DNA of 38,288 nucleotides from Pseudomonadota bacterium (GTDB lineage: Bacteria > Desulfobacterota > JAZDOA01). How positions within the stretch are numbered: the stretch's first letter is position 1; every line of letters starts with the position of its first letter. The notes below the pieces were generated by a model. It was given only the letters and a program-made list of their open reading frames with translations. It was not told the origin of the DNA and did no database searches. The stretch covers positions 1 through 38,288 of the forward strand of contig JAZDOA010000151.1 of NCBI GenBank assembly GCA_043799175.1, read 5' to 3'. Shown one piece after another: positions 2,204 to 19,574 of this stretch. Both the position numbers and the translations under genes were made by a program.

Positions 2204-2214
2204 GGGAGGAAGCA

Positions 2215-2517
2215 ATGGGACGGGCGCGAATCGCGATTCCAAAGGAGCGGGTTGCCGAGTTCTGCCGCAAGCACCACATCCGCAGGCTGGCCCTCTTCGG
2301 CTCCGTGCTGCGCGAGGATTTTGGCCCCGGCAGCGACGTGGACGTGCTGGTGGAGTTCGAGCCTGAGCACATACCGGGGCTGGCCTTCTTCAGCATGGAG
2401 GCCGAGCTGTCCAAGATTCTCGGGCACAAGGTGGACCTGAACACGCCGCAGTTCCTGAGCCGCTACTTCCGGGAGGCGGTCTTGGGTGAGGCGGAGGTGC
2501 AGTATGTCGCGGCGTGA
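2215..2517 (+). CDS. MNT-type minimal nucleotidyltransferase (HepT/MNT antitoxin component)
   Basis: 100-aa product with the nucleotidyltransferase signature '[22 protein letters not shown]' (GSx9-13DxD). A GGGAGGA Shine-Dalgarno sequence sits 4 nt before ATG 2215, 12 nt after the mod stop. The gene overlaps the downstream HepT-like ORF. Confidence 0.8.
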
Positions 2518-2692
2518 CGACCTGGTCCGGCTGCCGGGCGTTGCCTGGCCCCAGATAGTCAGCCTGCGCAACCGGCTCATCCACGGCTACGACTCGGTGG
2601 ACATGGACATCCTCTGGCAAATCCTCCAGCAAGACATACCCACCCTCATAGCCGAGATGGAGAAGGCTGTTTCCACGGAGCCCGAGGGCTGA
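2504..2692 (+). CDS. HepT-like (DUF86) toxin fragment, N-terminally truncated (62-68 aa)
   Basis: Contains the HepT catalytic RX4HXY motif 'LRNRLIHGY' followed by a '[15 protein letters not shown]' helix, i.e. the C-terminal half of a HepT. A stop codon at 2456-2458 in this frame means at most 68 aa (GTG 2486) or 62 aa (ATG 2504) are encoded, so the N-terminal half of a normal ~110-130 aa HepT is absent. Its TGA stop (2690-2692) overlaps the Res ATG (2692) by 1 nt. Confidence 0.5.
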
Positions 2693-5370: not shown

Positions 5371-5588
5371 GACACTGGCCGGAACGTGCGCCCGGTTCTC
5401 TCAAAGAAGTCCGCGGCACATTCGGCGCCCGCAAAAAACGGCCCTGCCGCCGTGGCGGTATTGTCTCCACGCACGTGGGGGTGAACCGAAAGAGGAAAAG
5501 CCCTAACGAATAGAAGGGGAAGAGAAAATAGAACAGACTTTTGCCAGGCGTTTCTACGCCTTGCCCGCACTTGTCTAGGCCGCGTCAA

Positions 5589-5619
5589 TTGACAAGGGGG
5601 TCCCCTCTGTCGTAAAAAT
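5589..5619 (+). promoter_or_regulatory. Candidate sigma70-like promoter upstream of zorA (TTGACA, 18-19 nt spacer, TAAAAA/AAAAAT)
   Basis: TTGACA at 5589-5594 and an A-rich -10-like hexamer at 5613-5619 in the 260-nt res-zorA intergenic region. The -10 match is weak. Confidence 0.25.
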
Positions 5620-5645
5620 GTACAGTTTGTTTGGCGGGAGGGTCG

Positions 5646-7580
5646 ATGTCCTTAGCTGGTCTGCTCCAATACTCCTGGACGATACTCGGGATTTCTGCTC
5701 CATGGTTCGCCTGGGTAGCAGCCCCAGCCATCTTCCTTCCCGTCGCTTATCTGCTTTGGAAGCTTCGGGACAGGACTCTGACCGCCGGACAACGCTGCTC
5801 GCAGTTCGCAACCAAGCTGGATGAAGTTCGGAGTCGCAGTGCCCGGAGGCCGGGCACTGGGCTGTCAGGCGAGGAGATGGAGGCCATAACACAGGTCTTC
5901 CTTGACAACGAAAGTTTCAAGGAACCCTGGCAAAGATACGAAGCGACCTCGATCATTCGCCTTACTCACGACGGCGCCGATTCCTTCTGGGCCGCCGAAA
6001 GTGCCGCCGATGCCTTCGATGAACACTCGCTCTTCGATGAGGGCATCAACAAGCAATTCTATCAAGCGGTCCCTGGGCTGGCCACAAGCGTGGGCCTCTT
6101 CTTCACCTTCTTGGCCATCCTGGTGGCCCTGATGGAGGTCCGCTCCGATGGTATCAAGGTTGCGGGGTTGTCGGGGCTGATCAACGGGCTTTCAGGCAAA
6201 TTCCTTACCTCCGTCGCCGCCCTGCTTGCGGCATCCATCTATCTGCTGGCCGAAAAACCCGTCTGGCACAGACTGACTCTAGCCCACCGTTCCCTGATCG
6301 ACGCCATCGACCGGAGCGTGCCGCGCCTCACCCCTACCCGCCTGCTCGCCAACCTCGACCGGCAGATGACGGAGCAGACCAACGCCTTCCACAGCTTCAA
6401 CACCAGCTTGGCTATCAAACTGCAGGAAAGCTTCAGCACGAGCATCGGACCCACCCTGGAGCGGATGGTCGAGTCCATTGAAGGCCTCAATCAATTTCTC
6501 AAACAAGCCGAATTGGCCCGCCAAGAAACGACCACTGGGGAAATCAAGCGGCTGCTCACGGACGTGGAACAATCCATGTCCGCTACCCTGGCGAGCATGG
6601 GGAAGCAGTTCTCGGATTCCCTCTCCGGCGACGTGCGGGGGCAGTTCAACGGCATTATCGAATCACTGGATAAATCAGCCTCCGTTATTGACAAGATGAA
6701 CAGCCAGTTGGAAGGCACGCAGGAGGCCATGAAGGCCATAGCGCAGTTGGCGAAGGAGTCCACGCTGGAGCAAATCAGTCAGGGTAGGAAACAGTCTCAG
6801 GACGTCGCCGAAGTGCTGACCGCATTGATGACCCAAATGAAGGAGGCAACCGGAGTCTCGGCCAACAACATGCTTTCGGCCATGGCTGTGGCCACGGAAA
6901 GCCTGGCTCAGAAGGTGGACTACATAAGCGACCGGATGTCTCAGCTCATCCAGGAGAGTACCGGCCAAGTCAACAAGACGGCCACGGAGGTCATTGAAAA
7001 ATCGGACCAGGTTTCAGAAGCCAACATGCGTCGCCTCACCGCGCTGCTGGAAAGGTTGGATAATCACGCCGACCAGACTGCGCGTTTGAAGCTGCTGCTC
7101 GACGAGGCCATGGGCAATCTCACCAAGGTCCTGGTCCAATACGCGGAGATCAGCAAAGATATTTTCGGCGCGACATCCAACTTCAGCCTGACGGCCAACT
7201 ATCTGAAGGGTATATCCTCCGAGGTGAAAGACACCCAGACATCTATTCGCGAGGTCTCGGAGCTCTCCGCCCGCCAGGTGGACAGGCTTGAAACGGCGTG
7301 GAAGCATGTTGACGTGACGACATCCGCAATTTCAAACTCGATGAATGACTATCAAAGGGTGTTTGATGTCGTTAAGGGTTCCTCGCAGAGCCTACTGGAT
7401 ACTATCGCGACTCATATGAATCAGTACTCTGATACCACCCGAAACCACTTTGACAGCTTGGTATCCGTGGCCAATGGACACATGACCGAAGCGGTCGGCA
7501 AACTTCGCAACATAATTGGGGAACTTGACGAGAGCATCAGTGATCTCAGTGATGCATTGTTGAAGGTTCCCAGGCGTTAG
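5646..7580 (+). CDS. zorA: ZorA (Zorya type I; MotA/ExbB-like proton-channel protein with long C-terminal coiled-coil tail)
   Basis: N-terminal TM helices. MotA/ExbB/TolQ-like channel region 'QFYQAVPGLATSVGLFFTFLAILVALMEV...GLSGLINGLSGKFLTSVAALLAASIYL'. About 420 aa of low-complexity heptad-like sequence follow, rich in Q/E/L/S, matching the ZorA tail. ATG 5646 follows a GGGAGGG Shine-Dalgarno sequence; the track ORF begins at TTG 5631. It is the first gene of a four-gene cluster. Confidence 0.7.
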   Translation: MSLAGLLQYSWTILGISAPWFAWVAAPAIFLPVAYLLWKLRDRTLTAGQRCSQFATKLDEVRSRSARRPGTGLSGEEMEAITQVFLDNESFKEPWQRYEATSIIRLTHDGADSFWAAESAADAFDEHSLFDEGINKQFYQAVPGLATSVGLFFTFLAILVALMEVRSDGIKVAGLSGLINGLSGKFLTSVAALLAASIYLLAEKPVWHRLTLAHRSLIDAIDRSVPRLTPTRLLANLDRQMTEQTNAFHSFNTSLAIKLQESFSTSIGPTLERMVESIEGLNQFLKQAELARQETTTGEIKRLLTDVEQSMSATLASMGKQFSDSLSGDVRGQFNGIIESLDKSASVIDKMNSQLEGTQEAMKAIAQLAKESTLEQISQGRKQSQDVAEVLTALMTQMKEATGVSANNMLSAMAVATESLAQKVDYISDRMSQLIQESTGQVNKTATEVIEKSDQVSEANMRRLTALLERLDNHADQTARLKLLLDEAMGNLTKVLVQYAEISKDIFGATSNFSLTANYLKGISSEVKDTQTSIREVSELSARQVDRLETAWKHVDVTTSAISNSMNDYQRVFDVVKGSSQSLLDTIATHMNQYSDTTRNHFDSLVSVANGHMTEAVGKLRNIIGELDESISDLSDALLKVPRR

Positions 7581-7582
7581 TC

Positions 7583-8236
7583 ATGGCTGGTGGCGATCAT
7601 AACTCGGGACTGGCGAATTCCTTCACAGATCTCATGACTTCCCTGGCGGTCATATTCATCCTGCTGTTGTGCGCCTCGCTCAACAACGCACAACAGGAGG
7701 GACAGAACGTCAGGGCCGCCATCATCGCGGACTTGCAACGCGAACTGCAATCGTTCTTCAAGCAAGGGGTGGAGGTCAAGAAAGACCCGCGCGACCCCCT
7801 GGGACTCATCGTGCTCGTGCCGGAAGGGCTGTTGCAGTTTGCCTTGAACGATGACAACATTCCCCAAGAAGGCAGGCGGTTCCTCAACGCATTTATCCCC
7901 AAGCTCGCCTCGACCATGCTTTCTCCAAGGTTTAGAGATGACATCAATTCCGTAGTAGTAGAGGGACATACCGACTCTTCCGGCACCGATGCAATCAATC
8001 TGCCATTGAGCCAGCGCCGCTCGCTGTCCGTGGTCATGGAGAGCCTCGGAGTGCTCGACGGAGACGCCCGAATGTGTTTCCTCAAGCTGCTTTCCGCAAG
8101 CGGCAGGGGCAGCATGGAGCCGTTCATCGACACCAAAACCGGGCATGAAGACATGGGCAAGAGCCGGCGGGTCTTTTTCAAGATAAGGGTTCGCTCCCTG
8201 GAGCAGAAGACAATCTATAAGTATATTGACTCATAA
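7583..8236 (+). CDS. zorB: ZorB (MotB-like; N-terminal TM helix plus OmpA-family peptidoglycan-binding domain)
   Basis: 217-aa ORF starting 3 nt after the zorA stop. TM helix 'LMTSLAVIFILLLCASL'. OmpA-like core 'VVVEGHTDSSGTDAINLPLSQRRSLSVV' (GHTD...G...N..LS..RA pattern). Confidence 0.75.
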   Translation: MAGGDHNSGLANSFTDLMTSLAVIFILLLCASLNNAQQEGQNVRAAIIADLQRELQSFFKQGVEVKKDPRDPLGLIVLVPEGLLQFALNDDNIPQEGRRFLNAFIPKLASTMLSPRFRDDINSVVVEGHTDSSGTDAINLPLSQRRSLSVVMESLGVLDGDARMCFLKLLSASGRGSMEPFIDTKTGHEDMGKSRRVFFKIRVRSLEQKTIYKYIDS

Positions 8237-8255
8237 AGCTTCTTAGGGGCCATGC

Positions 8256-9623
8256 ATGATCAGCCTTGAGACCTTCCGTCAGACCGAACAACTATTGAGG
8301 GCCAACCTGAAAGACCTCTCACCCGAGACTATTGCTAACTGGCCGACGACGCCCGAGACGCGGCTGAAAGACCTGGCGGCCGTGGTCGCCAGTCTCGACG
8401 TCTTGGGAATGCCTTCCCGTCCTCCCCGCACGCCCGATTATTACCTGCGGGAGTGGGCAGACTACATCGGCGGCCGCCATGACCTCAGTCCAGCCGCCTT
8501 TCGCCACCTGTGCTGGGAACCGGACGTGGCCACCTCGGAACCCTTCCTGTTATGCCTTCAGGCCGACAGCAAGAGGGTTTTGTCCCGCAAAGGGCTGCGA
8601 GGACTGGCATACAGCATCCACGCCTTGTGGTCGAAGCGCGGGTCATTGGGCGATTCCGTAAAGCTGATACGGCAGTTCCTGCGCGATTATGCGGGCTTTG
8701 ACACGGCCATCAACAAGTGGCGGACAAACATCGACTCGCTCTTCGACCTTGAGGCCCACCACGCGCTGGCCGCCCGGCTGCTGGAACAGGGCCAGAAACC
8801 AGACGCCTTCTTTCGCGAGCATTCTCTGTTCCCTTACACCGAGTTCTATTGGGCGGTGCTGCAGGCGGCCATAACCAATTCCCTCGAAGCCATGAGGCGC
8901 GCTTTTTTTTGGCACACCCACCGGTTGCCATCTCTGCTTGAGTACTGCCTGGATCTCCTCTCCGAGGAAGAGCTTCCAACCGCACTTTTCAAGAATACAA
9001 TTGCCCAGATCATCCTAAGCCCGGCGATGGAAAACCAACCTCTGGCCGACCGCGTCAAGGAATACGTACTGGATCATAAAAAGTTGGGCGACCCGCGCCT
9101 TCGGCATAACGGCATACATTGGGCCGGAATTGATGAGGCCGCCAAGGACAAGATTGTCCAATGGCTCTCCAGGGCAGACATCATCTTCTTTTTCGAGCAT
9201 GTCATGCAGCGGGGAGAGGACCGCCACGGCCGGAAGGACTTCTGGCTAAGATACGAAAAGAAGTTCCGGAACACCAGATGCCTTCTCTCCCCCAATGACA
9301 AAGCCCGGTTGAGTTCCGTATTCCATCGGCGTGAATCTCGAATAGAGGGTTACGGGAGCGTGCGCGGTGGCCTTAACCAAAGCGCCTTCCTGCTGGACTT
9401 TGGCTCGGTACTGGCCATCGAGTTTCACAAGGTTGGGGCATGCTACGTCTATAAGCGTCCTGCCCTTCCAGACGTACTGCAAAGCGGCTTGAGAAGTTCG
9501 GAGCACTTCTGGGAAGGGGAACTGAAGGACCAAGATGCCGCTGCTGACCGCATTGTTCATCGCCATGGTTGGCAGGAAAAGATGGCTCAGTGTCTCGCCA
9601 GGCACCAGATCTGGGCCGGATGA
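8256..9623 (+). CDS. zorC: ZorC (EH-signature-domain protein of type I Zorya)
   Basis: 455-aa ORF sitting between the MotAB-like pair and the SNF2 protein, as in type I Zorya. It contains Glu-His dipeptides in conserved-looking contexts ('FFREHSLFPY', 'FFEHVMQRGEDRHG'). It has no other recognisable catalytic motif, so the assignment rests mainly on synteny. Confidence 0.5.
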   Translation: MISLETFRQTEQLLRANLKDLSPETIANWPTTPETRLKDLAAVVASLDVLGMPSRPPRTPDYYLREWADYIGGRHDLSPAAFRHLCWEPDVATSEPFLLCLQADSKRVLSRKGLRGLAYSIHALWSKRGSLGDSVKLIRQFLRDYAGFDTAINKWRTNIDSLFDLEAHHALAARLLEQGQKPDAFFREHSLFPYTEFYWAVLQAAITNSLEAMRRAFFWHTHRLPSLLEYCLDLLSEEELPTALFKNTIAQIILSPAMENQPLADRVKEYVLDHKKLGDPRLRHNGIHWAGIDEAAKDKIVQWLSRADIIFFFEHVMQRGEDRHGRKDFWLRYEKKFRNTRCLLSPNDKARLSSVFHRRESRIEGYGSVRGGLNQSAFLLDFGSVLAIEFHKVGACYVYKRPALPDVLQSGLRSSEHFWEGELKDQDAAADRIVHRHGWQEKMAQCLARHQIWAG

Positions 9624-12600
9624 AGAAGATGGCTTTTCAGCACGATACAAGCTCTCATATTCTGGTTTTGGACCGGCCTGCCCCAGGAGTAGAGGTGCAG
9701 GCCCACTCCGATGCCCTGCGCCTGGTTTCGGCCACCTGTGATTTCGGAGACCGTGACCAGCTTGCGGCTCTTTCCGCGTCGTCACGGACTCATCTTGGCC
9801 GTTCACTCCAGTTTCTCCTGCCGCAGATCCTCGAACTGGGCCGGGCCAACCTGGAAGAGGCCGGCCGCATAGCCATCCCCTACAGCGACCTCTACATCCT
9901 TGAGGATGAAGGCCTGCGAGCCTTCGAGCCGTTGGCCGCTTGGGCACCATTCATGGTGGAACTCTCCTCGACCGGGTCGGTGGGAACTTCTTCTTTCCGT
10001 TACATTTGCCGCCTCTACGTAGGGGCCAGGCAAGTCTTCCCTCGACGCGTGGGGGCATTCGTGGATCTTCAAGGACGCCTCTTGCGACTCGACCGCTCCA
10101 GCTACGCGTTGATCGAGGCGGTGGAGGAAGCCAACAGCCTGCCCGCAGCCGAAAGAAACGCGACAGATGCCCTTCGCAGTTTGGCCCAGATAAGAGGCTT
10201 GGCGGAGGAGATCGGCGTCCAGCTCGACCGTTACCTCGCCCAGGAGCGAGTGATCATTCCCGCTGAGGTTGGAGTCGGTATCGAGGAAGATCATAAGGGA
10301 CGCATCTCCTTCGTTCCTCAGATCGACGGAGTGCCCGATGACGCGTTGAAGCGCGACTTCCTCGCCCGTGACGACACGGGCGTCTATTCCCTCACCCATC
10401 CTGACGGAGGCCAGCTGCGGGTTGTCTTGGGACCCAAGCAAAGAGAGGCGCTTAACAGAATGCGCTGGGTCCGCTTGCTTTCCGGGGAAGCCAAAGCCCG
10501 CGTGCTGGCCAACCCGGCCGCCACCTTCGAGGGACTCCTCGATGATGTCATCCGTATGGACGGCCTAGGGCCGAGAGTCAAAGACATTGGCAACTTCCCC
10601 TTCATTGTCCGTCCCCGCATTTCTTACGGCGTTCTCGACGGCATCCTGGGGAGCGCGCAGCCGCAGCACAAGTTGCCGCGCGCTGGCCTGGAAATCGTCT
10701 CAGTTGACGCCTCCACCGGCGAAAGACACACGGAACACGTCGACTTTGCCAACGAGAAGGAACGTCAGGAATTCACTCAGCAGGTGAAGGACGCCGCACG
10801 GACGGGACAAGGCTGTGTCCAGTTTCGAGACCTGACCGTGCAGGTGGAACCCGAACTCCTCAAGGGACTCGATGAATTGGAGCAGCGGCTAGCTCGGCCA
10901 CCACGTGGTCTCAAGGAGGAGCAGGAGGATCAAGGCCGCTATCTGCTGATCTACACGAACGAGGAGGAAGTCGACTATCCCGGGCAGGGAGAAGGAGAAG
11001 CGCCAGGGCCAGTACCCTCCGCCCCCATCTTCGAGCCTCCGCAGGCTCTGCTGGACACTGATACTCTCACCAAATACCAGCAAGCAGGAATCGCCTGGCT
11101 ACAACTTAACTATCGGCTCAAGGGCCGGCGGGGATGCTTGTTGGCCGACGACATGGGTCTGGGCAAGACTCTTCAGATCCTCAACTTCGTGGCTTGGCTG
11201 ATTGAGCAGGGCTCTCTCCTGGAGAAGCCAGGGGACGCCTCAGAACTCCCGCCCTGGAATCCAGTGCTCGTTGTGGCGCCGGTCATGCTGCTCGAGGTGA
11301 AAACCTGGGTCAAAGACATGCAGTGTTTCTTCCGGCATGAAGGCAATGTATTCCAGCCATACCTGGTTCTACATGGACAAGAACTTCAACGGCTGCGCCA
11401 AGACGGGGTCCGTGGCCGGGAAACCCAGCTGGGTGAGCCAATCCTCGACCTGGAGAAGTTGCGTAGCCATCGCGTCGTTCTCACGAACTACGAAACCGTG
11501 GTTAACTACCAACATTCGTTGGCTCGCATCAAGTGGGCAGCCGTCGTGACCGACGAGGCGCAGGAGTTCAAGACGCCCAGCACCAAAATCTCTCATGCTC
11601 TGAAGAGCCTCGATCCTCGCTTCCGCGTGGCCCTTACGGGCACCCCCGTGGAGACCCGTCTTTTGGATGTCTGGAACATATTCGACTTTCTCCAGCCAGG
11701 CCATCTGCGCAGCGCCAAGGAATTCTGCGATGACTACGAAAGACATCTGGAGGATGATAGCGCGTGCTCCGACGCGCTGAACAGGCTAAAGAAGAGTCTG
11801 GCGCATGGGGAGCCTGACGCCTTCATTCTGAGACGCAATAAAACAGAGTTGAAGGATCTGCCTCCCAAACATGAGCACGAGATCTACTGCCAGCTCTCCG
11901 ACATCCAGCGCCAGCACCACCTCGACCTCGTCCGTCAGGCCGGCACGGGAGCCAGTCATCATTTCAGTCTGCTCAGCAGCCTGATGTTCCTCTATCAGCA
12001 TCCTGATTTGGAGTTATCGAGGGATAGGATGCTCGACCTTCCTGCACAGACGCTGGTGGACCGGTGCCCGAAGCTGTCGGCCACCATTGAAGTCTTATCG
12101 AAGATACGGCGTGCCCGTGAAAAAGCGCTCATTTTCACCCGCAGCATCGTCATGCAACAGGCCATAGCCAAGGTTCTTGGGGAGACATTCGGCCTCAATA
12201 TCGACATCATAAATGGGGCCACCAAGCGCCACAGCCCCCGCGCCAGCGTCGCGACGCGCGAACAAATACTCCAAAGATTCCGTGAGCATGTCGGCTTTCA
12301 CGTCCTCGTGCTCTCACCCGAGGTAGCTGGTTTGGGCCTGACTATTGTCGAGGCAAATCACGTCATCCATTATGGCCGCTGGTGGAATCCGGCCAAAGAA
12401 TCACAGGCGACCGACAGGGTTTATCGCATCGGCCAGAAAAAGGATGTACACGTCTACTACCCAATTGCCCAAGACCCACTTGGGCAGTTCAAGACTTTCG
12501 ATGAAAAGCTCGACGACTTGCTCAAACGCCGGCGCCAATTGGCCACCGACTTCTTGATGCCCATTCCGGATGAGGAGCGCCTGAGCAGGGAACTGGCCGA

Positions 12601-13120
12601 AGGAATTCTGTGCGAGCATGAAGGAGATCGGGGCGAGGTCAGGCCCCTCAATATGCACGACATCCCCGACCTTGCCTGGGATAGGTTTGAGGCTTTGGTG
12701 GGGCTGCTTGAGCACAAGCAGGGGCGCCAAGTCATACTGACCCCGCGGGCGGGAGACCAGGGCATAGATGTCATTGCCGCGGACGGCAACGATGTAAGGC
12801 TTATCCAGTGCAAGCACACTGCTGGCTACAATATTCACGACGAAAGCGTAGCCGAGACTATCGAGGCATTCGACGGCTACCGCGCGAGGTACCTGCGCGG
12901 CAAGAGTCCCTGCAAGCTAATCCTCTCCACCAATGGCGGCTTCACGGAGAGCGCTGGCTCCATGGCGTACCTACGCGGCGTTCAGCTTGTTCCAGGCGCT
13001 GATCTGGAGCGGCTGCTTGATGCTTATCCGGTCACTTTCGCCGAAATCGAGACATTCGCCCAACGCCGTTGCAAGACCATGAAAGAGGTGCGTGCGGCCA
13101 TTCAGGGCTGGCGGCTTTGA
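9620..13120 (+). CDS. zorD: ZorD (SNF2-family ATPase with C-terminal Mrr-like PD-(D/E)xK nuclease domain)
   Basis: SNF2 motif I 'LLADDMGLGKTLQ', motif II 'VVTDEAQEFK' (DEAQ box), and a helicase C region 'ALIFTRSIVMQ...GLGLTIVEANHVIHYGRWWNPAKESQATDRVYRIGQ'. The C-terminal ~130 aa 'VILTPRAGDQGIDVIAADGNDVRLIQCKHTAGY' resembles the Mrr catalytic (type IV restriction) fold. ATG 9620 overlaps the zorC TGA as ATGA; the track ORF begins at 9569. Confidence 0.75.
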   Translation: MKKMAFQHDTSSHILVLDRPAPGVEVQAHSDALRLVSATCDFGDRDQLAALSASSRTHLGRSLQFLLPQILELGRANLEEAGRIAIPYSDLYILEDEGLRAFEPLAAWAPFMVELSSTGSVGTSSFRYICRLYVGARQVFPRRVGAFVDLQGRLLRLDRSSYALIEAVEEANSLPAAERNATDALRSLAQIRGLAEEIGVQLDRYLAQERVIIPAEVGVGIEEDHKGRISFVPQIDGVPDDALKRDFLARDDTGVYSLTHPDGGQLRVVLGPKQREALNRMRWVRLLSGEAKARVLANPAATFEGLLDDVIRMDGLGPRVKDIGNFPFIVRPRISYGVLDGILGSAQPQHKLPRAGLEIVSVDASTGERHTEHVDFANEKERQEFTQQVKDAARTGQGCVQFRDLTVQVEPELLKGLDELEQRLARPPRGLKEEQEDQGRYLLIYTNEEEVDYPGQGEGEAPGPVPSAPIFEPPQALLDTDTLTKYQQAGIAWLQLNYRLKGRRGCLLADDMGLGKTLQILNFVAWLIEQGSLLEKPGDASELPPWNPVLVVAPVMLLEVKTWVKDMQCFFRHEGNVFQPYLVLHGQELQRLRQDGVRGRETQLGEPILDLEKLRSHRVVLTNYETVVNYQHSLARIKWAAVVTDEAQEFKTPSTKISHALKSLDPRFRVALTGTPVETRLLDVWNIFDFLQPGHLRSAKEFCDDYERHLEDDSACSDALNRLKKSLAHGEPDAFILRRNKTELKDLPPKHEHEIYCQLSDIQRQHHLDLVRQAGTGASHHFSLLSSLMFLYQHPDLELSRDRMLDLPAQTLVDRCPKLSATIEVLSKIRRAREKALIFTRSIVMQQAIAKVLGETFGLNIDIINGATKRHSPRASVATREQILQRFREHVGFHVLVLSPEVAGLGLTIVEANHVIHYGRWWNPAKESQATDRVYRIGQKKDVHVYYPIAQDPLGQFKTFDEKLDDLLKRRRQLATDFLMPIPDEERLSRELAEGILCEHEGDRGEVRPLNMHDIPDLAWDRFEALVGLLEHKQGRQVILTPRAGDQGIDVIAADGNDVRLIQCKHTAGYNIHDESVAETIEAFDGYRARYLRGKSPCKLILSTNGGFTESAGSMAYLRGVQLVPGADLERLLDAYPVTFAEIETFAQRRCKTMKEVRAAIQGWRL

Positions 13121-13312
13121 GCGAGTTTATTCCAGCGACTCAGCCCCCCGCTGCCTAAACAAGCCGACTACTGCAATGCGAGGATTCTTGGCTCTCTATT
13201 CCTGGGGCTCATCGTAAGCGCTTAACCACTCCCCCCAATGAACCCACAGTAGCAAAATGGTAGCGACGAAGAAGGGCGACCCGAGCCGCCCCTTGGCAAC
13301 CGCTTGATTTTC

Positions 13313-13377
13313 TGGTCATGGGCCAGGCGCGCGCGCCCCTCAGGCACCCTCCTCGGCTAACGGCAGCCCGACGAAGA
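13313..13377. repeat. Direct repeat copy A (65 nt, ~89% identical to 15540..15604); relic of the histidine-kinase 3' end
   Basis: 'tggtcatgggccaggcgcgcgcgcccctcaggcaccctcctcggctaacggcagcccgacgaaga' matches 15540..15604, with 7 mismatches in 65. The minus-strand reading ends '...LPLAEEGA-stop', the same as the C-terminus of the HK gene at copy B. Confidence 0.8.
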
Positions 13378-13492
13378 CCGCACCACCGGAGTGGGCACCG
13401 GCCCCGTAGAATTGCCGCAACCCGAGGACCGGATCTGGTATGTTCCTTGTGAGCTGCAAAATGCCACTTATGTCCGCACACCTGGAGGAATC

Positions 13493-15508
13493 ATGCTGGA
13501 TCTGTTTTATGCTCACCTGACACTGGTCAGCACCGTCGCGACCGGCCTCGTGATTCTCGGCTATTATTCGATCGTCATCGTCTCCGGCAGGGAACTGGCG
13601 GTGCTGGAACGGCGCTGGTGCGGCAGACAGATGCCGCAGGGGCGCGTCGTGGCCATGGGAGACGAGGTCGGCATCCAGGCCCGGACCCTGGGCCCCGGCC
13701 TGCACTTTCTGCTACCCTTCGTCTACGCGGCGCGAAAGTACCCCTTCGCCGAGATCAAGGACGGCGAGATCGGCATCGTGGAGTCTATCGACGGCAACCC
13801 CATCCCGCCGGGTCGGATTTTTGCCCAGGTGGTGGAGGGACACAACGCCTTTCAAGACGGCGAGGTCTTCCTGAAGAACGGCGGCCAGAAAGGCCCCCAG
13901 ATCCAGATCCTTTCCCCAGGGAAGTACCGGATCAACCCCTACCAGTTCAACGTCACCAATGGGGAGGCGGTCGTCGTCGACAAGGGTAAGGTGGGTGTCG
14001 TCGCCGCCATGGACGGCAAGAGCATACCCGCCGGGAGGCTCCTGGGGCAGCGCGTCGCCGAGCACTCCAATTTCGAGAACGGCCAGGCCTTTATCGAGAA
14101 CGGCGGGCAGAAGGGGCCGCAGATCGACATCCTGCAGCCGGGGACCTACCGCATCAACCTAAACCAGTTCGAGGTGGAGATCCACGACGCCACGGTAATC
14201 CCGGCCAACAACGTCGGCCTGGTGACCGCCCTCGACGGCAATCCGCTCCCGGAAACGGAGTACATCGCCAAGTCGGTCTCCGGCCACGAGGACTACCAGG
14301 ACGCCCAAAAATTTCTCTTCGCCGGCGGCCAGCGCGGGCCACAGCTCAACATGCTGCGGCCGGGCACGTACTACATCAATCCCCTCATGTTCAAGGTGGA
14401 GCTCGACGACGTCACCGTGGTGGAACGGGGCCAAGTGGCGGTGGTCATCTCCAACGTGGGGGAAGAGCCGACCGCGGAAATGAAGCGGCGCCTGAGCGCC
14501 TCCCAGACCAATACGCTGACCGAAGAGGAGGCCAGGGAGCGGTACGTGGTTCCCGAGGGGTACCGCGGCATCCAGGAGGAGGTGGCCGGCCCTGGACGCT
14601 ACTACCTCAACAAGCGGGCCTTCATCCCGTACATCATTGACACCACCAACATCACCATAGACTGGGACAGCGCGGCGGACACCCGCTTCGATCCTCTCAA
14701 GGTGATCTCCAAGGACGGCTTCCCGATTGACGTTTCGGTCAAGGTCGTGGTCCGCGTCCGGCCGGATCAGGCCCCGTACATGGTCGCCAAGGTCGGCTCC
14801 GCGGAGAACCTCATCCTCCACGTCATCCACCCCATGATAGACTCCTCGTTCCGCAACCAGGCCTCGTCCACCTCGGCCATGAACTTTCTGCAGAACCGCC
14901 AGGAAGAGCAGGTCCGCGCCGAAGACCGGGCCCGTGCCAGCCTGGAGAAGTACCACGTGGAGTGCGTATCCGTCCTCATCTGCCAAATCAACCTGCCCCA
15001 GGACCTGATGGAGACCCAGACCAGGCGGATCATCGCCGAGCAGCAGAAGGAGATGTTCGCCATGCAGCAGGAGGCCGAGGCGGCCAGAATCTCCACCGAA
15101 AAGACCCGCGCCACCGCCGACCAGCAGGGTGAGCTGGTCAAGGCCGAGATCGGGGTGAAGGTCGCCGACCAACAGAAGCAGAAGACCATCGTCCTGGCGC
15201 AGGGGGATGCCGAGGGGATACGGCTGCGCGGCGAGGGCGAGGCGAGGAAGATCGAGGCCATCGGCCAGGCAACCGCCCAGGCCTACCGGGAGCAGAATGC
15301 CGCCCTTGGTCAGGAGGCGATTACCGCCATCGAGGTGATGAAGAAAGTCGCCGAGGGCAATATCCGCATCACCCCCGATATTCTCGTCGCCGGCGAAAAC
15401 GGGGGCCTCCTCGACGTGCTGCTGGCCCAGTTAGTCAAGAAGGGTTCTCTGCCGGATGCGGTTGAACCCGGCAGGCACTGCAAGGCAAGGGTGATGGAGG
15501 CGGAGTGA
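13493..15508 (+). CDS. Flotillin/SPFH (band-7) family membrane protein with N-terminal tandem ~73-aa repeats
   Basis: GGAGG Shine-Dalgarno sequence then ATG 13493; TM helix 'LTLVSTVATGLVILGYYSIVIV'. Three clear plus one degenerate repeat unit '...G(V/I)V..DG.(P/S)IP.GR.....V.(G/E)H..F..G..F..NGGQ(K/R)GPQ...L.PG.Y.IN...F.V'. The SPFH core is '...KVISKDGFPIDVSVKVVVRV...HVIHPMIDSSFRNQASS'. A flotillin-type EA-rich coiled-coil C-terminus follows: 'QQKEMFAMQQEAEAARISTEKTRATADQQ...'. Confidence 0.7.
   Translation: MLDLFYAHLTLVSTVATGLVILGYYSIVIVSGRELAVLERRWCGRQMPQGRVVAMGDEVGIQARTLGPGLHFLLPFVYAARKYPFAEIKDGEIGIVESIDGNPIPPGRIFAQVVEGHNAFQDGEVFLKNGGQKGPQIQILSPGKYRINPYQFNVTNGEAVVVDKGKVGVVAAMDGKSIPAGRLLGQRVAEHSNFENGQAFIENGGQKGPQIDILQPGTYRINLNQFEVEIHDATVIPANNVGLVTALDGNPLPETEYIAKSVSGHEDYQDAQKFLFAGGQRGPQLNMLRPGTYYINPLMFKVELDDVTVVERGQVAVVISNVGEEPTAEMKRRLSASQTNTLTEEEARERYVVPEGYRGIQEEVAGPGRYYLNKRAFIPYIIDTTNITIDWDSAADTRFDPLKVISKDGFPIDVSVKVVVRVRPDQAPYMVAKVGSAENLILHVIHPMIDSSFRNQASSTSAMNFLQNRQEEQVRAEDRARASLEKYHVECVSVLICQINLPQDLMETQTRRIIAEQQKEMFAMQQEAEAARISTEKTRATADQQGELVKAEIGVKVADQQKQKTIVLAQGDAEGIRLRGEGEARKIEAIGQATAQAYREQNAALGQEAITAIEVMKKVAEGNIRITPDILVAGENGGLLDVLLAQLVKKGSLPDAVEPGRHCKARVMEAE
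13748..14410 (+). repeat. Tandem intragenic coding repeats (about 3 x 220 nt) inside the SPFH gene
   Basis: Three units are visible in the translation: 'GEIGIVESIDGNPIPPGR...NGGQKGPQIQILSPGKYRINPYQFNV', 'GKVGVVAAMDGKSIPAGR...NGGQKGPQIDILQPGTYRINLNQFEV', and 'NNVGLVTALDGNPLPETE...AGGQRGPQLNMLRPGTYYINPLMFKV'. Coordinates are approximate. Confidence 0.55.
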
Positions 15509-15539
15509 GGTGGCAAGGCCGCCCGCCGGACTCCGGCCG

Positions 15540-15604
15540 TGGTCATGAACCAGGCGCGGGATTCCCTCAGGCACCCTCCTCGGCTAACGGCAGCTCGACG
15601 AAGA
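15540..15604. repeat. Direct repeat copy B (65 nt); it is the functional 3' end of the histidine-kinase gene
   Basis: Same 65-nt sequence as 13313..13377. It covers the last 12 codons and stop of the minus-strand HK gene plus about 25 nt downstream. Confidence 0.8.
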
Positions 15605-17174
15605 AGGTGGTTCCCTGAGACGGCTCGCTCTCGGCCCAGATGCGGCCGCCGTGGCGATCCACGATGCTCTTGGCGATGTAAAGCCCCACGCCGAGGCCGG
15701 CATAGACGGCCTGCTGCGGGCCGGGCTTATAGAAACGCTCGAAGATATGGGGCAGATGCTCCGGGGCGATGCCGATCCCCTCGTCGCGCACATCCACGAG
15801 GGCGCGCCCGTCGTGGTGGCGTGCCTGCATCCAGATGCGGCCTCCCTCGGGGCTGTACTTGATGGCGTTGTCGAGCAGATTGGAGAAGACCTGCTCCAGC
15901 CGCACCGGGTCGCCCTTCACCACCAACGGCTCCTCGGGCGGACAGAAGACGAGGCGGTGATCAAGAATGGGCCGTTCGCAGACCGCCCTGACGACCTTGG
16001 TCAGATCGAGTTCCCGGAGCTCGACGGGCATGCGGCCCATCTCCAGCCGCGAGACCTCCAGCAGGTCGTTGACGAGTTGCACGAGCTGATCCGTCTGCCT
16101 CAGCAGCCTGGTCACTATGTCCCGGCTGAGCACCTCGGGCCGGCGCAGGGCCAGCTCGCTGAAGATCTTGATCGACGTCACGGGGGTCTTCAGTTCGTGA
16201 GAGGCCATGGAGAGGAACTCGTCCTTGAGGCGGCTGGCCTCCTCTATCTTCCGCTGGACCTCCTTCTGGGCGGTGATGTCCCAGAAGACGACCACGGCTC
16301 CCGTCCTCTGTCCACCCACGACCAGGGGCAGGGCGGTGCAGATGACGGGCACCAGCCGGCCGTCGGCCCGCACGAGCGTCTCCTCCCAGCCGATCGTGGC
16401 CTCGCCCTGCAAGGCCTTGAAGATGCCGAGCTCCTCCGGCGCCAGCGCCCTTCCCTTCGGGCAGAGCACCTTCCAGGTCTTGCCATAGTTCGTGAGGTCC
16501 TTGACCTCGTCCCGGCTAAGCCCAATCAGCCGCTCGACGGCCTCGTTGACGAGGACGATCCGTCCGTCCGCCGCGGCAATGAGCACGCCCGCGGGCAACT
16601 GGTCGAGGATGGCGGCCAGCCAGTCGGCCCTCTCCTGCTCCCAGAGCGCCAGCTCCTCGGCCTGGCGCCTGGCGTTTGCCAGCTCCTCGGCCCGCCGCTG
16701 TTCGGTGAGGTCGGTCACGACCATGCAAAAACAACTGTTTTCTCCCAGGGGCAGGGGGCTGACCGACACCAGGGCGGGCAACACTCCGTCGCCCCTACGG
16801 AACCGGATCTCGCCGCGGCTGCCGGACGGGCCACGGGAAAGCAAAGCCGACAGGGCAGCCGTCTCTTCCCAAACCGCGTGCCGCTCAAGCGGAGAGCCGA
16901 TCACCTTCTCGATCGGCAGGCCGAGCATCTCGGCCAACCGGCGGTTGCAGTAGAGGATGGTGCCGTCCGCGGCCAGGGTGGCGGCCCCCTCGCTCATGGC
17001 CTCTACCAGAACCTGGTAGGCGCGGTCAGCCCCCTTGAGGGTATAGACCTGGTCGCCCACCACCAGGGCGTCCACCTCGCCACCCCGGATGGCCGCAATC
17101 GTCTCCTCCGCCTCGCGCAGGCGCTCCATCATCTCCTCGATCTCGCTGCGCGGCGTGTCTTCGTTCTCAGGCAT
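15567..17174 (-). CDS. Cytoplasmic PAS-domain sensor histidine kinase (probable output kinase of the KaiBC module)
   Basis: 535-aa ORF with no TM segment. An N-terminal coiled coil is followed by PAS-like segments. The HisKA H-box is 'EFLSMASHELKTPVTSI'. HATPase_c motifs are 'NLLDNAIKY', 'DEGIGI' and 'GLGVGLYIAKSIVDRHGGRIW'. The ATG start overlaps the kaiB stop by 8 nt. Confidence 0.85.
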   Translation of the reverse strand: MPENEDTPRSEIEEMMERLREAEETIAAIRGGEVDALVVGDQVYTLKGADRAYQVLVEAMSEGAATLAADGTILYCNRRLAEMLGLPIEKVIGSPLERHAVWEETAALSALLSRGPSGSRGEIRFRRGDGVLPALVSVSPLPLGENSCFCMVVTDLTEQRRAEELANARRQAEELALWEQERADWLAAILDQLPAGVLIAAADGRIVLVNEAVERLIGLSRDEVKDLTNYGKTWKVLCPKGRALAPEELGIFKALQGEATIGWEETLVRADGRLVPVICTALPLVVGGQRTGAVVVFWDITAQKEVQRKIEEASRLKDEFLSMASHELKTPVTSIKIFSELALRRPEVLSRDIVTRLLRQTDQLVQLVNDLLEVSRLEMGRMPVELRELDLTKVVRAVCERPILDHRLVFCPPEEPLVVKGDPVRLEQVFSNLLDNAIKYSPEGGRIWMQARHHDGRALVDVRDEGIGIAPEHLPHIFERFYKPGPQQAVYAGLGVGLYIAKSIVDRHGGRIWAESEPSQGTTFFVELPLAEEGA

Positions 17175-17532
17175 CCTTACTCTCGCGACCTTTCTTCGGC
17201 CTGATGTCCAGGCCCACCAAGACCCGCCCGGTGTCGGACATGTCTCCGATCAGCTTGCGCAGCGGGGCCGGGAGTCTCTTGACCAGCGTGGGGACGGCGA
17301 TGATCTGTTCCCCCTCGAGCAGCACCGGCTGCTGATAGATGTCGATGACCTCCAGGTCGTAGCGGCCCTTCAGGTGCTCCTCGCAGATGACCTTGATGTT
17401 CTCGATGGCCTGCCTCGACCGAGGGGTGGCCCCGGCTACATAGAGACGCAGGATGTAGGTCCCGCCCTGCCCTTCCTCTCCGGCGAGGGCAGACTCGAAG
17501 CGCCTGGTGGAATCGGGGTGGTCGTAGGTCAT
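17167..17532 (-). CDS. kaiB: KaiB-like protein (copy 1, thioredoxin-like fold)
   Basis: '[83 protein letters not shown]' is a canonical KaiB core. Its ATG (17532) forms an ATGA overlap with the stop of upstream kaiB copy 2. The track ORF, which begins at 17610, appears over-extended. Confidence 0.8.
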
Positions 17533-17822
17533 GGTCTGTCCCCTTTCGGGCGCGGGTCGAGGCCGACCAGCACGCGCTCGGTGTTCGACAGGTCGCCGAT
17601 GATCTTGCACAGCGGCGGAGGGAGCTTCCGGACCAAGGTCGGGATGGCCACGATCTGGTCTCCCGCGGCGAGCTGGGGACGCTCAAGCAGGTCTATCACC
17701 TCTATGGTGTACTGGCCCTTCAGGTGCTCCTCGCAGAGCTTCTTCAGATTGGCGAAGGCGGCCAGTGACCTGGGAGTCTGCCCGGCCACGTAGAGCCGCA
17801 GGTGCCACTGCTCCTTCTCCAT
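17529..17822 (-). CDS. kaiB: KaiB-like protein (copy 2)
   Basis: 97 aa, '[72 protein letters not shown]'. It is a paralogue of copy 1 and shares a 22-nt identical DNA stretch with it ('cccttcaggtgctcctcgcaga'). It lies 7 nt downstream of the kaiC stop. Confidence 0.8.
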
Positions 17823-17828
17823 ACCGCG

Positions 17829-19574
17829 TCAGCCCTCCTTTTGGGGGCCGGAGGGCAGCTCCTCCCGGAAGCACGTCTCCCTCCGCTCGACCATGGTCCG
17901 CCGCTCCTTGGTTTCAAGCTCCCCTCGCAGCCGCACCTCATCGAGGAAGCGGTCCATTTCGTCCTCTTCGGCCGCCAGCGCGGCCTCCAGCGCGGCCATC
18001 CGGGTCCGTATGGCCAGGCGCCGGCGCTCCAGGGCACGCCCGCGGCGCGCGACTTCCTGCTCGCGAGCGGCGACCTCGGCCCGCTCCTTGGCCTCCTGGA
18101 CGGCCCGCGCCGAGCCGGAGAGCACACCCCGCGGCCCGACATAAACCGGGGACAACTCGATACCCCGGTCGGTGAGCAGGAACTCGCGCATCTGGTTGGA
18201 GTGCTTCATGCCCCGTGACTTAAGGACGTGGATGTGGCGGTTGCGCTCCCCGTCGGTCTCGACGTCACCCAGCACGATCCAGGTGTCCATCAGCGAGGAG
18301 ATGCCCACCTCGGTGGCCTCGAGGGCCAGCCCACCGGATGTGAGGTTGGTGAACATGCCCGTGATCTGGTGCGTCTTGAGAAAGTCGATCAGCCGCACGA
18401 GCATGGACTTGACGTCCAGAGTTCCGTCACCCGCCGCGAGGCTGCTGATGGGGTCGATCGCGACCACCGCCGGCTTGAACTCCGTGGCCACGCGCTGCAT
18501 CGAGAGCAGGTGCTGCTCGATACCCGTGAGGCTGGGGCGGGTGGCCTCGAAACGCAGCAGGCCGGCCTTGACATGGCGTGGGAGGTCGAGTCCGATCGAG
18601 GCCATGTTGCGCATGATCTGGGCGGGAGATTCCTCGAAGGTGTAGTAGACGGCCCGCTCGCCCCGCTGGCAGGCCGAATCGACGAAGCAGACCGCCAGGC
18701 TGCTCTTGCCCGTGCCCGCCGTGCCAGACACCAACACGCTCGAGCCGCGGTACCAACCCCGCCCCCCCAGCATTTCGTCCAGGCCCAAAACACCCGTCGA
18801 GACGCGGTGGCGCGAGACCTCGTAGCAGAGACCCAGCGAGGTGACGGGCATGACCCAGACGCCGTCCTCGCCGATGAGGAAGGGGTACTCGTTGGTGCCG
18901 TGTACGGAGCCACGGTACTTCGCCACGCGCAGGCGCCTGGTCGAGACCTGCTCGTGGACGCGGTGGTCGAGCAGAATGACGGCATCGGAGACGTACTCCT
19001 CCAGGCCGTGGCGGGTAAAAGCGGCCGAATCGCGACCCCGTTCGGCGGTGATGATGGCCGTGATGCCCCGGTCCTTGAGCCAGCGGAAGAGGCGCCGGAT
19101 CTCGGCCCGCAGGATCATCTCATTCGGCAGCCCGGAAAAGAGGGCCTCCAGGGTGTCGAGCACGACGCGCCTGGCCCCGATGGAGTCTATGGCGTGGCCC
19201 AGGCGCACGAAGAGGCCCTCGAGGTCGTACTCGCCCGTCTCCTCGATCTCGCTGCGCTCTATGTAGATATAATCTATCAGGAGCTTCTTCCGCGCCACCA
19301 GCCCGGCCACATCCCAGCCGAGGGAAGAGACGTTCCTGACCAGGTCCGCGGCCGACTCCTCGAAGGCGACGAAGACCCCCGGCTCCTCGTACTCTTGGGC
19401 GCCGCGCACCAGGAACTCCATGGCCATGAGGGTCTTGCCCGAACCCGCCCCGCCGCTCAGGAGGGTGGGCCTGCCCTGGGGCAGTCCGCCGAAGGTGATC
19501 TCGTCAAGGCCCCTGATGCCAGTCGGGGTCTTAGGCAGCCCCCGCTCCGAGGGGGTGATGGACTCCTCCGCCAC
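17829..19574 (-). CDS. kaiC: KaiC (double RecA-like P-loop ATPase/autokinase)
   Basis: 581 aa. CI Walker A 'LLSGGAGSGKTLMAMEF' and CII Walker A 'VLVSGTAGTGKSSLAV', in the typical duplicated KaiC architecture. GTG start 19574 is preceded by a GAGGAGG Shine-Dalgarno sequence. Confidence 0.9.
   Translation of the reverse strand: MAEESITPSERGLPKTPTGIRGLDEITFGGLPQGRPTLLSGGAGSGKTLMAMEFLVRGAQEYEEPGVFVAFEESAADLVRNVSSLGWDVAGLVARKKLLIDYIYIERSEIEETGEYDLEGLFVRLGHAIDSIGARRVVLDTLEALFSGLPNEMILRAEIRRLFRWLKDRGITAIITAERGRDSAAFTRHGLEEYVSDAVILLDHRVHEQVSTRRLRVAKYRGSVHGTNEYPFLIGEDGVWVMPVTSLGLCYEVSRHRVSTGVLGLDEMLGGRGWYRGSSVLVSGTAGTGKSSLAVCFVDSACQRGERAVYYTFEESPAQIMRNMASIGLDLPRHVKAGLLRFEATRPSLTGIEQHLLSMQRVATEFKPAVVAIDPISSLAAGDGTLDVKSMLVRLIDFLKTHQITGMFTNLTSGGLALEATEVGISSLMDTWIVLGDVETDGERNRHIHVLKSRGMKHSNQMREFLLTDRGIELSPVYVGPRGVLSGSARAVQEAKERAEVAAREQEVARRGRALERRRLAIRTRMAALEAALAAEEDEMDRFLDEVRLRGELETKERRTMVERRETCFREELPSGPQKEG

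What the first reader, a model, noticed from the sequence alone, without database searches (positions are those of the whole stretch)
13313..15604. SPFH/flotillin gene is a 2.2-kb cassette bracketed by 65-bp direct repeats that duplicate the 3' end of the KaiBC-associated histidine kinase
The 65-nt segments at 13313..13377 and 15540..15604 are 58/65 identical. Copy B is the true last 12 codons, stop and 3' flank of the minus-strand HK gene. Copy A, read on the minus strand, ends with the same '...LPLAEEGA-stop' but is not preceded by kinase sequence. Exactly one gene lies between the copies: the repeat-containing SPFH gene. A duplication this long is unlike an IS target-site duplication (2-14 bp) and looks more like attL/attR from site-specific integration at the HK 3' end, with no integrase retained. 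If that is right, DNA left of copy A (Zorya, Type III RM) may be a second island integrated in tandem at the same site, with its far att copy outside the window. I know of no described mobile cassette consisting solely of an SPFH protein.
Basis: seen in the sequence. Interest (0 to 1): 0.75.

Follow-up and report, generated by a model that had tools for sequence, protein, structure and literature searches.

The report
Kinase-tail duplication flanking an acquired SPFH gene
A 65-base copy of the end of a histidine-kinase gene sits on each side of one horizontally acquired membrane-scaffold (SPFH) gene; it looks like the scar of a single insertion that rebuilt the kinase's tail, not a new kind of mobile cassette.

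Summary
Segments 13313-13377 and 15540-15604 are a 58/65 direct repeat with a 31-nt exact core, the strongest non-genic repeat in the contig. Copy B is the working 3' end of the KaiC-KaiB-KaiB-linked histidine kinase (HK). Copy A is a discrete stub with no kinase sequence beyond it. One gene, SPFH, lies between them.

SPFH is foreign. It is 86% nt identical (dS 0.6) to Geobacteraceae genes. KaiC and HK reach at most 65% aa identity to anything, and the housekeeping Asd falls to about 72% beyond a few 79-82% relatives.

The cassette idea does not generalise:
- Homology to relatives stops at the CDS.
- Seven related SPFH loci have no flanking repeats.
- 0 of 80 KaiC loci carry SPFH nearby.
- 0 of 48 loci with an HK-like 3' end show a duplicated HK tail.
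- The window has no integrase, transposase, terminal inverted repeats or third copy.

No close relative exists in any collection searched, so no empty site could be examined.

Best reading: a one-off insertion scar at a gene's 3' end, like icd/icdC around prophage e14. It was probably made by recombinational integration of an element now decayed to one cargo gene. The mechanism is inferred, not shown. Interest is low to moderate.

The parts
13313..13377 (-). Copy A. A displaced, non-functional stub of the HK 3' end: 27 nt of 3' flank, a stop at 13340-13342, and 35 nt of coding sequence (...FVGLPLAEEGA*). No kinase sequence lies beyond it.
13337..13367 (.). The 31-nt core in copy A, identical to 15564-15594.
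13378..13492 (+). A 115-nt leader between copy A and the SPFH start codon, with GGAGGA 5 nt upstream of the ATG. It has no homology to HK or to the upstream regions of related SPFH genes.
13493..15508 (+). The SPFH/Band 7 gene (671 aa). It has an N-terminal helix, four tandem 74-aa units, an SPFH domain at about residues 352-530 (386-564 of the 705-aa ORF scanned), and a long C-terminal helix. It is horizontally acquired, and it nests in a clade whose named members are Geobacteraceae.
15509..15539 (+). A 31-nt, 84% GC tail between the SPFH stop and copy B.
15540..15604 (-). Copy B. The working 3' end of the HK (its last 11 2/3 codons and the stop at 15567-15569) plus 27 nt of 3' flank.
15567..17174 (-). 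PAS-PAS-HisKA-HATPase_c histidine kinase (535 aa), intact. It is the last gene of the kaiC-kaiB-kaiB-HK cluster.
17167..19574 (-). Context: two tandem kaiB genes (17167-17610 and 17529-17822) and kaiC (17829-19574).
323..13120 (+). Context on the left of copy A. Type III RM (Mod 323-2203, Res 2692-5370) and Zorya type I (ZorA 5631-7580, ZorB 7583-8236, ZorC 8256-9623, ZorD 9569-13120). GC3 is about 0.70 for Mod and ZorA-D (Res 0.84), against 0.87-0.89 for SPFH, HK and KaiC.

Best explanation
This is the scar of one insertion of foreign DNA into the last 12 codons of the histidine kinase (HK) gene.

Shown:
- The HK is intact because copy B supplies its last residues, stop codon and 27 nt of flank.
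- Copy A is a dead C-terminal stub, cut off from any kinase body.
- The DNA between the copies carries a single gene, an SPFH membrane-scaffold protein.
- That gene came by horizontal transfer from the clade whose named members are Geobacteraceae.

Inferred:
- The incoming DNA already carried a short imitation of the HK 3' end, taken from a related strain's HK.
- It recombined with the resident HK inside the 31-nt identical core. This would have been a Campbell-type integration, through either a site-specific recombinase or RecA.
- That recombination gave an attL/attR-like pair, as with icd and icdC around prophage e14.
- The recombinase and the rest of the element were later lost or lie off the contig. 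What remains is an immobile one-gene remnant, comparable to a cis-mobilizable element (CIME; an element that keeps its att sites but has lost its own recombination genes).
- The repeat has no present function beyond keeping the kinase whole.
For: - The repeat is real, discrete and unique in the window.
- The stub has the HK-specific tail AEEGA*, the stop codon and a flank. Four paralogous kinases in the same MAG lack this tail.
- SPFH is foreign:
  - It is 86.2% nt identical to L001 and L087. That is closer than the Geobacteraceae genes L001 and L002 are to each other (84.2%).
  - dS is 0.58-0.60, which is unsaturated.
  - Asd reaches only 79-82% aa in a handful of relatives and about 72% beyond them. 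None of the top 120 hits that carry a name is Geobacteraceae, though most are unnamed.
  - KaiC reaches at most 65% and HK at most about 60% aa identity to anything.
- SPFH is not a partner of KaiBC-HK operons. None of 80 KaiC loci has it within 10 kb.
- The mismatch pattern fits two copies of different origin better than an in-situ duplication that then decayed:
  - 6 of 27 flank positions differ against 1 of 38 coding positions (Fisher P = 0.017).
  - The mismatches are clustered (P = 0.009).
  - Given the flank divergence, 5-7 mismatches are expected in the coding half of a decaying stub, and 1 is seen (P = 0.005-0.04).
- Known precedents: the icd/icdC pair flanking e14 (PMC13626634), and CIMEs and tandem accretion at gene 3' ends (PMC5704250).
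Against: - No integrase or other recombinase was found in the window.
- There is no third repeat copy.
- No empty site or circular junction is available. No database sequence carries the 22-nt core.
- A 2.2-kb, one-gene 'element' is far smaller than known integrative elements. Heavy decay has to be assumed.
- The imitation includes HK-specific tail and flank sequence. The incoming DNA must therefore have visited this same locus in a relative, which is an extra assumption.
- If the clustered flank mismatches are counted as about three events, the statistical case against in-situ duplication disappears (and my reasoning).
- The whole case rests on a single MAG contig without read support.
Confidence: 0.45

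Rival explanations
1. The duplication arose in place. Foreign DNA carrying SPFH was captured at a break in the HK 3' end whose two nicks lay 65 nt apart. Alternatively it was copied in by replicative template switching, or by a transposase acting in trans. Fill-in synthesis duplicated the 65 nt, and the copies then diverged by mutation.
For: - Both copies carry HK-specific tail and flank sequence, which is what a duplication of this very locus predicts.
- Both ends of the repeat are sharp.
- No recombinase is needed in the insert.
- The single coding difference removes the family-invariant Glu of VELPLA from the stub, as expected if the stub is decaying.
Against: - The mismatches are concentrated in the flank and clustered: 6/27 against 1/38 (Fisher P = 0.017), with clustering P = 0.009.
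- A freely decaying stub should have about 5-7 coding-half mismatches.
- The insert ends have no terminal inverted repeats, and there is no transposase.
- From my own knowledge, target duplications of tens of bases are exceptional in bacteria. IS1634-type elements are the example I recall.
Confidence: 0.25
2. Copy A came in with the Zorya/RM block, not with SPFH. A donor strain had that block directly downstream of its own HK. A transferred fragment ended 38 nt inside the donor HK. It was joined illegitimately just upstream of a resident SPFH gene (homology-facilitated illegitimate recombination). Copies A and B would then be alleles from two strains.
For: - The composition break lies between ZorD and SPFH, close to copy A. 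GC3 is about 0.68-0.72 for Mod and ZorA-D, against 0.87-0.89 for SPFH, HK and KaiC.
- A conserved coding part with a diverged flank is the pattern expected of orthologues from diverged strains.
- No recombinase is needed.
Against: - The donor block and the recipient's SPFH would both have had to sit exactly 27 nt downstream of the HK stop. That again implies a site-specific hotspot.
- SPFH itself is clearly foreign.
- No relative of ZorD or of the spacer was found for comparison.
Confidence: 0.12
3. It is an assembly artefact. The contig would be a chimera of strain variants joined through the shared 31-mer, and the duplication would not exist in any one genome.
For: The contig comes from a metagenome-assembled genome, and no reads were available. 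The two copies differ, as strain variants would.
Against: - The junction GACGAAGA|CCGCACC to the right of copy A matches neither HK nor any other part of the window. A real molecule must carry a partial HK tail next to the SPFH leader.
- Similarity continues for 10 nt past the exact core.
- From my own knowledge, a 31-nt exact repeat is shorter than the final k-mers of the usual assemblers.
Confidence: 0.05
4. The repeat is functional. Copy A in the SPFH leader would be antisense to the 3' end of the HK mRNA, or would share a protein-binding site with it. This would couple SPFH expression to the KaiBC-HK output.
For: If copy A is transcribed with SPFH, it would be complementary to the HK mRNA tail at 58 of 65 positions, 31 of them contiguous. 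This follows directly from the sequence.
Against: - No promoter-like site lies upstream of copy A.
- Folding energies are no better than shuffles.
- There is no Rfam match.
- SPFH and KaiBC-HK are never linked elsewhere.
- Related SPFH genes have no such leader.
Confidence: 0.03

Closest known systems
icd / icdC around cryptic prophage e14 of E. coli K-12 (integration into the 3' end of a protein-coding gene)
   Same: The inserted DNA is flanked on one side by the intact target gene, whose 3' end runs into the element. On the other side is a short C-terminal pseudogene fragment with a few substitutions (PMC13626634). Here the intact gene is HK with copy B, and the fragment is copy A.
   Different: e14 is about 15 kb and encodes its own integrase and excisionase. 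Here the insert is 2.2 kb with a single cargo gene and no recombinase. The duplicated piece is 65 nt, much shorter than the icdC fragment. Excision is documented for e14 and unknown here.
CIMEs (cis-mobilizable elements) and tandem accretion at gene 3' ends, as with ICESt1/ICESt3 at fda
   Same: Both are segments bounded by direct repeats at the 3' end of a gene, without integration or transfer genes, and possibly next to another island (definition in PMC5704250).
   Different: A CIME is recognised by its relationship to an autonomous element that has the same att sites. No such element, integrase or third att copy is seen here. In the accretion model the newcomer usually lands next to the target gene. 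That would make the recombinase-less SPFH segment the newest arrival.
Target-site duplications of IS elements and transposons
   Same: Direct repeats of target sequence immediately flank the inserted DNA.
   Different: The repeat is 65 nt, not 2-14. There are no terminal inverted repeats and no transposase, and the copies are only 89% identical.
SPFH/Band 7 proteins of the YqiK/flotillin-like type (for the cargo gene)
   Same: It has a Band_7 domain (PF01145), an N-terminal membrane helix and a long C-terminal helical region. Some source databases name homologues YqiK or HflC-like.
   Different: It has four tandem 74-aa units before the SPFH domain that match no Pfam model. It has only weak similarity to HflC (E about 1e-5 to 1e-3) and matches no PADLOC defence model.

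Membership tests
Integrated element bounded by attL/attR at a gene's 3' end (prophage, genomic island or ICE; e14/icd type) | Direct repeats bracket the insert. One repeat completes the target gene and the other is a displaced stub. | tested here: met
Integrated element bounded by attL/attR at a gene's 3' end (prophage, genomic island or ICE; e14/icd type) | A tyrosine or serine recombinase is encoded inside or next to the element. | tested here: not met
   Pfam scans of the main ORFs across the window found no integrase, recombinase or transposase domain. The insert encodes only SPFH.
Integrated element bounded by attL/attR at a gene's 3' end (prophage, genomic island or ICE; e14/icd type) | The enclosed DNA is foreign to its flanks. 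| tested here: met
   SPFH is 86% nt identical to Geobacteraceae genes with dS 0.6. Asd falls to about 72%, and KaiC and HK reach at most 65% aa identity to anything.
Integrated element bounded by attL/attR at a gene's 3' end (prophage, genomic island or ICE; e14/icd type) | An empty site in relatives, or an excised circular form. | not testable with these tools
   No close relative of HK, KaiC or ZorD was found, and the core 22-mer is absent from all collections. The nearest genome (Asd 82%) loses synteny at about 32.8 kb. No reads were available.
CIME (cis-mobilizable element) | attL and attR are retained while integration and transfer genes are lost. | tested here: inconclusive
   Repeats are present and such genes are absent. 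Whether the repeats work as att sites is unknown.
CIME (cis-mobilizable element) | A related autonomous element uses the same att sequence, in tandem or elsewhere. | tested here: not met
   The window has only two copies and no integrase. The core is not found in any collection. The other contigs of the MAG could not be read.
IS or transposon insertion | Transposase, terminal inverted repeats, and a short (2-14 bp) target duplication. | tested here: not met
   No transposase. No inverted repeat at 13378 or 15539. The duplication is 65 nt.
Integron gene cassette | An attC site (imperfect palindrome that folds as a hairpin) next to the gene, and an IntI integrase nearby. | tested here: not met
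   Folding of both copies is no better than shuffles. No integrase was found. Copy B is coding sequence.
   Seven loci (L001, L002, L003, L087, L088, L089, L091) have no bracketing repeats. Homology is confined to the CDS. Two of these loci share a stable Trx-AhpC-SPFH-peptidase C13 context.
SPFH/Band 7 superfamily (the cargo gene) | A Band_7 domain above Pfam's gathering score. | tested here: met
   PF01145, 93 bits against a cut-off of 23.6.
Zorya type I (the left neighbour) | ZorA, ZorB, ZorC and ZorD, in that order. | tested here: met
   PADLOC hits: ZorA 9e-21, ZorB 5e-38, ZorC 1e-25, ZorD 3e-210.

The most novel reading that the evidence does not exclude
The HK 3' end would be a genuine attachment site for an unsampled family of recombinase-driven islands. 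This SPFH clade would be single-gene cargo moved in trans, like a CIME, among defence-island neighbourhoods. The Zorya/RM block would be a second element accreted at copy A. In the same vein, close SPFH homologues lie near candidate defence genes in other genomes, so the gene may itself have a role in phage defence or membrane protection.
Probability: 0.07. Interest if true: 0.55.

Novelty: new member of a known kind. Interest (0 to 1): 0.25.

Why it matters
If the reading is right, this is a tidy example of how accessory regions are assembled. A foreign gene entered the last codons of a signalling kinase without destroying it, because the incoming DNA or the repair event replaced the kinase's tail. 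That is useful for annotation: the stub at 13340-13377 should not be called a gene, and the HK is intact. It also dates and orders acquisitions in a mosaic region that holds Type III RM, Zorya, SPFH and KaiBC. It does not reveal a new mobility mechanism or a new class of cassette. The wider point, that this SPFH clade moves between unrelated genomes as a lone gene and often lands near defence genes, may deserve a systematic survey.

Tried and rejected
- Chance repeat: rejected.
- Larger HK pseudogene: rejected. Neither DNA nor protein homology extends past the 65 nt.
- Origin from a paralogous kinase: rejected for the four paralogues of the same MAG that I could see. Their tails differ after VELPLA. 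The family does share DNA-level conservation of ACCTTCTTCGTCGAG, even with another genome.
- Structured RNA or terminator element: no Rfam hit, and folding is no better than shuffles.
- Integron attC, or IS with terminal inverted repeats: rejected.
- Dispersed repeat or third copy: none in the window. The core 22-mer is absent from genome, metagenome and viral collections, and there is no plasmid match to 13100-13520.
- Empty-site search:
  - The HK has no homologue above about 60% identity.
  - KaiC reaches at most 65% in 80 GTDB loci.
  - ZorD has no relative in the metagenome scan.
  - The nearest genome (Asd 82%, GCA_040961035.1) is syntenic only from Asd to NUDIX.
- Recurrence of kinase-tail duplication: 0 of 48 KaiC loci with an HK-like 3' end.
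- tRNA-Lys island boundary: no second copy of the tRNA 3' end in the window.
- A second 'gene-tail' repeat, Res 3' end 5343-5377 against 22417-22451: at chance level.
- Structure prediction of SPFH: mean pLDDT 51, too poor for a fold search, so none was run.
- Literature: no paper links SPFH with Zorya or with defence islands.
Full report
**What the window is.** The 38,288-base window is an entire contig of an NCBI metagenome-assembled genome labelled 'Pseudomonadota bacterium'. Its genes run as follows:
- Type III methylase (323-2203) and restriction enzyme (2692-5370).
- A complete Zorya type I system: ZorA 5631-7580, ZorB 7583-8236, ZorC 8256-9623, ZorD 9569-13120.
- An SPFH/Band 7 gene (13493-15508).
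- On the opposite strand, a PAS-PAS histidine kinase (HK; 15567-17174), two tandem kaiB genes and kaiC (17829-19574).
- A low-GC3 patch with a SocA/Panacea protein, then tRNA-Lys (24289-24364).
- Housekeeping genes out to asd (36270-37304).

None of the ORFs scanned has an integrase, recombinase or transposase domain.

**Checking the observation.** The repeat is as described (full numbers are in the observation check).
- It is 65 nt and 58/65 identical, at 13313-13377 and 15540-15604, with a 31-nt exact core.
- It scores 51 in a self-comparison where chance repeats and shuffles reach 17-21.
- Its ends are sharp on both sides.
- Copy B is the HK's last 11 2/3 codons, its stop codon and 27 nt of flank.
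- Copy A ends ...FVGLPLAEEGA* and has no kinase sequence behind it at DNA or protein level.
- Only SPFH lies between the copies.

**Where copy A comes from.** The HK family has a conserved C-terminal motif, STFFVELPLA, which is even conserved at DNA level with a kinase from another genome. Four paralogues in the same MAG (accessions in the same MFH08 series) diverge straight after VELPLA. None ends in AEEGA*. Copy A also shares the stop codon and most of the 27-nt non-coding flank. It is therefore a copy of this HK's own 3' end, or of an allele of it.

**Is SPFH foreign?** Yes.
- The protein has many homologues at 83-88% identity. The named ones are Geobacteraceae, including Geomesophilobacter sediminis and Geomonas.
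- At nucleotide level the window's gene is 86.2% identical to L001 and L087. That is closer than L001 is to L002 (84.2%) or to L003 (84.9%).
- dS is 0.58-0.60, which is unsaturated.
- By contrast, Asd reaches 79-82% aa in only a handful of relatives and about 72% beyond them. The named hits there are Desulfobacterales, Syntrophales and 'Deltaproteobacteria', though most of the top 120 are unnamed.
- KaiC reaches at most 65% in species-representative genomes, and the HK at most about 60% in 5.8 billion proteins.
- GC3 of SPFH (0.87) matches both the host genes and the donor-clade genes, so composition says nothing on this point. The Zorya and Mod genes stand out at about 0.70.

**Is there a recurrent SPFH cassette?** No.
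- Nucleotide homology to relatives covers only 13510-15444, inside the CDS, and drops to background in both flanks.
- Seven related loci have no direct repeats bracketing the gene.
- Two of them share a stable chromosomal context of thioredoxin, AhpC, SPFH and peptidase C13. The others all differ.
- None of 80 KaiC loci has an SPFH gene within 10 kb.
- None of 48 KaiC loci with an HK-like 3' end shows a duplicated kinase tail.

The structure in this window is a one-off.

**Comparative tests that could not be done.**
- The 22-nt core is absent from the genome, metagenome and viral collections.
- The region from the ZorD end to the SPFH start (13100-13520) has no plasmid match.
- ZorD has no relative in the metagenome scan.
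- The closest genome (GCA_040961035.1, Asd 82%) keeps the order Asd, FBA, RsmD, CoaD, AMMECR1, NUDIX. After that it continues with HSP20, TilS and FtsH. Everything in the window left of about 32.8 kb therefore has no counterpart there.

No empty site, third copy or circular junction could be looked for.

**Internal clues to mechanism.**
- Six mismatches fall in the 27-nt flank and one in the 38-nt coding part (Fisher P = 0.017).
- The mismatches are clustered (P = 0.009).
- Suppose the two copies had started identical and the stub decayed freely. The flank divergence then predicts 5-7 mismatches in the coding half, against one observed (P = 0.005-0.04).
- This modestly favours two copies of different origin, meaning an imitation of the target on the incoming DNA or an allele from another strain. 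It argues against an in-situ target duplication.
- If the clustered flank changes are counted as about three events, the argument loses its force.
- The single coding difference replaces the family-invariant Glu of VELPLA with Gly in copy A, which fits a non-functional stub.
- There are no terminal inverted repeats at the insert ends, no Rfam match, no promoter-like site around copy A, and no folding signal.

**Interpretation.** The layout matches a known pattern. DNA that integrates into the 3' end of a protein gene leaves the gene intact and displaces a short C-terminal fragment to the far side. The example is icd and icdC around prophage e14 (PMC13626634). Segments that keep such repeats but lack recombination genes are called CIMEs, and they can sit in tandem with other islands (PMC5704250).

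I therefore rank the explanations as follows:
- About 0.45: recombinational, Campbell-type integration of an element since decayed to one cargo gene.
- About 0.25: an in-situ 65-nt target duplication.
- About 0.12: import of the Zorya/RM block together with a donor HK stub.
- About 0.05: an assembly artefact.
- About 0.03: a regulatory role for the repeat.

The defining features of an integrative element that could be tested gave mixed results. The repeats, the foreign cargo and the restored target gene are met. The recombinase is not. Excision or an empty site is untestable.

**Verdict.** The suggestion of a novel 'SPFH-only mobile cassette' is not supported. This is a new instance of a known kind of scar and is of low to moderate interest.

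Noticed in passing
window 17167-17822 (- strand): There are two tandem kaiB genes between kaiC and the HK: 17529-17822 (97 aa) and 17167-17610 (KaiB domain at residues 55-136). They are 69% identical over 258 nt, which makes them the strongest repeat in the window. The operon is therefore kaiC-kaiB-kaiB-HK.
   Followed up: partly
window 13700-14420 (SPFH residues about 70-310): The N-terminal half of the SPFH protein is four tandem units of 222 nt (74 aa) with a conserved motif (...DG..IP.GR...H..F.NG..F..NGGQKGPQ...L.PG.YRIN...F.V). They match no Pfam model. Longer homologues of about 830 aa exist, presumably with more units. AlphaFold2 gave only pLDDT 51.
   Followed up: partly
L002 12582-15032; L091 7671-13205; L003 437-1471: Close SPFH homologues (82-86% aa identity) lie in six different contexts across eight loci, several of them beside defence-type genes. 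These include a full-length PDC-S06 candidate (E = 0), a 1779-aa DpdF/GajB-like helicase next to a NACHT protein, and an OmpA/MotB-like protein directly upstream. This hints that the clade travels as lone cargo in defence-island neighbourhoods.
   Followed up: partly
L085 6001-8193; L086 6001-8283 (IMG/VR contigs): SPFH homologues at 56% identity occur on two viral contigs, one of them 110 kb. Their neighbours include MazG, radical SAM, SprT-like, TROVE and PcfJ-like genes.
   Followed up: partly
window 5343-5377 and 22417-22451: A 35-nt, 77% direct repeat aligns the last 8 codons and stop of the Type III Res gene (VTKASELP*) with an orphan VTKAGGLP* sequence 17 kb downstream. It brackets everything from Zorya to kaiC. 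Its score (19) is within the range reached by shuffles (17-20), so it is probably chance.
   Followed up: yes
window 20453-24364: A low-GC3 patch (0.61-0.70) holds a Sel1-repeat protein, two unassigned ORFs and a SocA/Panacea antitoxin-like protein. It ends at tRNA-Lys (CTT), which looks like an island boundary. No second copy of the tRNA 3' end is in the window.
   Followed up: partly
window about 24500-32870 versus L090: Synteny with the nearest available genome (Asd 82%) holds for Asd, FBA, RsmD, CoaD, AMMECR1 and NUDIX, then breaks. The window continues with AmtB, SbcCD-like genes and a transglycosylase. The relative continues with HSP20, TilS and FtsH.
   Followed up: partly
window 37663-37755: A 31-nt inverted repeat (84% complementary, 31-nt loop) lies just past asd near the right end of the contig.
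   Followed up: no
window 15600-15660 versus L004 9790-9860: The last 130 nt or so of this HK family are conserved at DNA level between unrelated contigs (for example CACGGCGGCCGCATCTGGGCCGAGAGCGAG and ACCTTCTTCGTCGAG). The right edge of the 65-nt repeat falls inside this conserved motif.
   Followed up: partly
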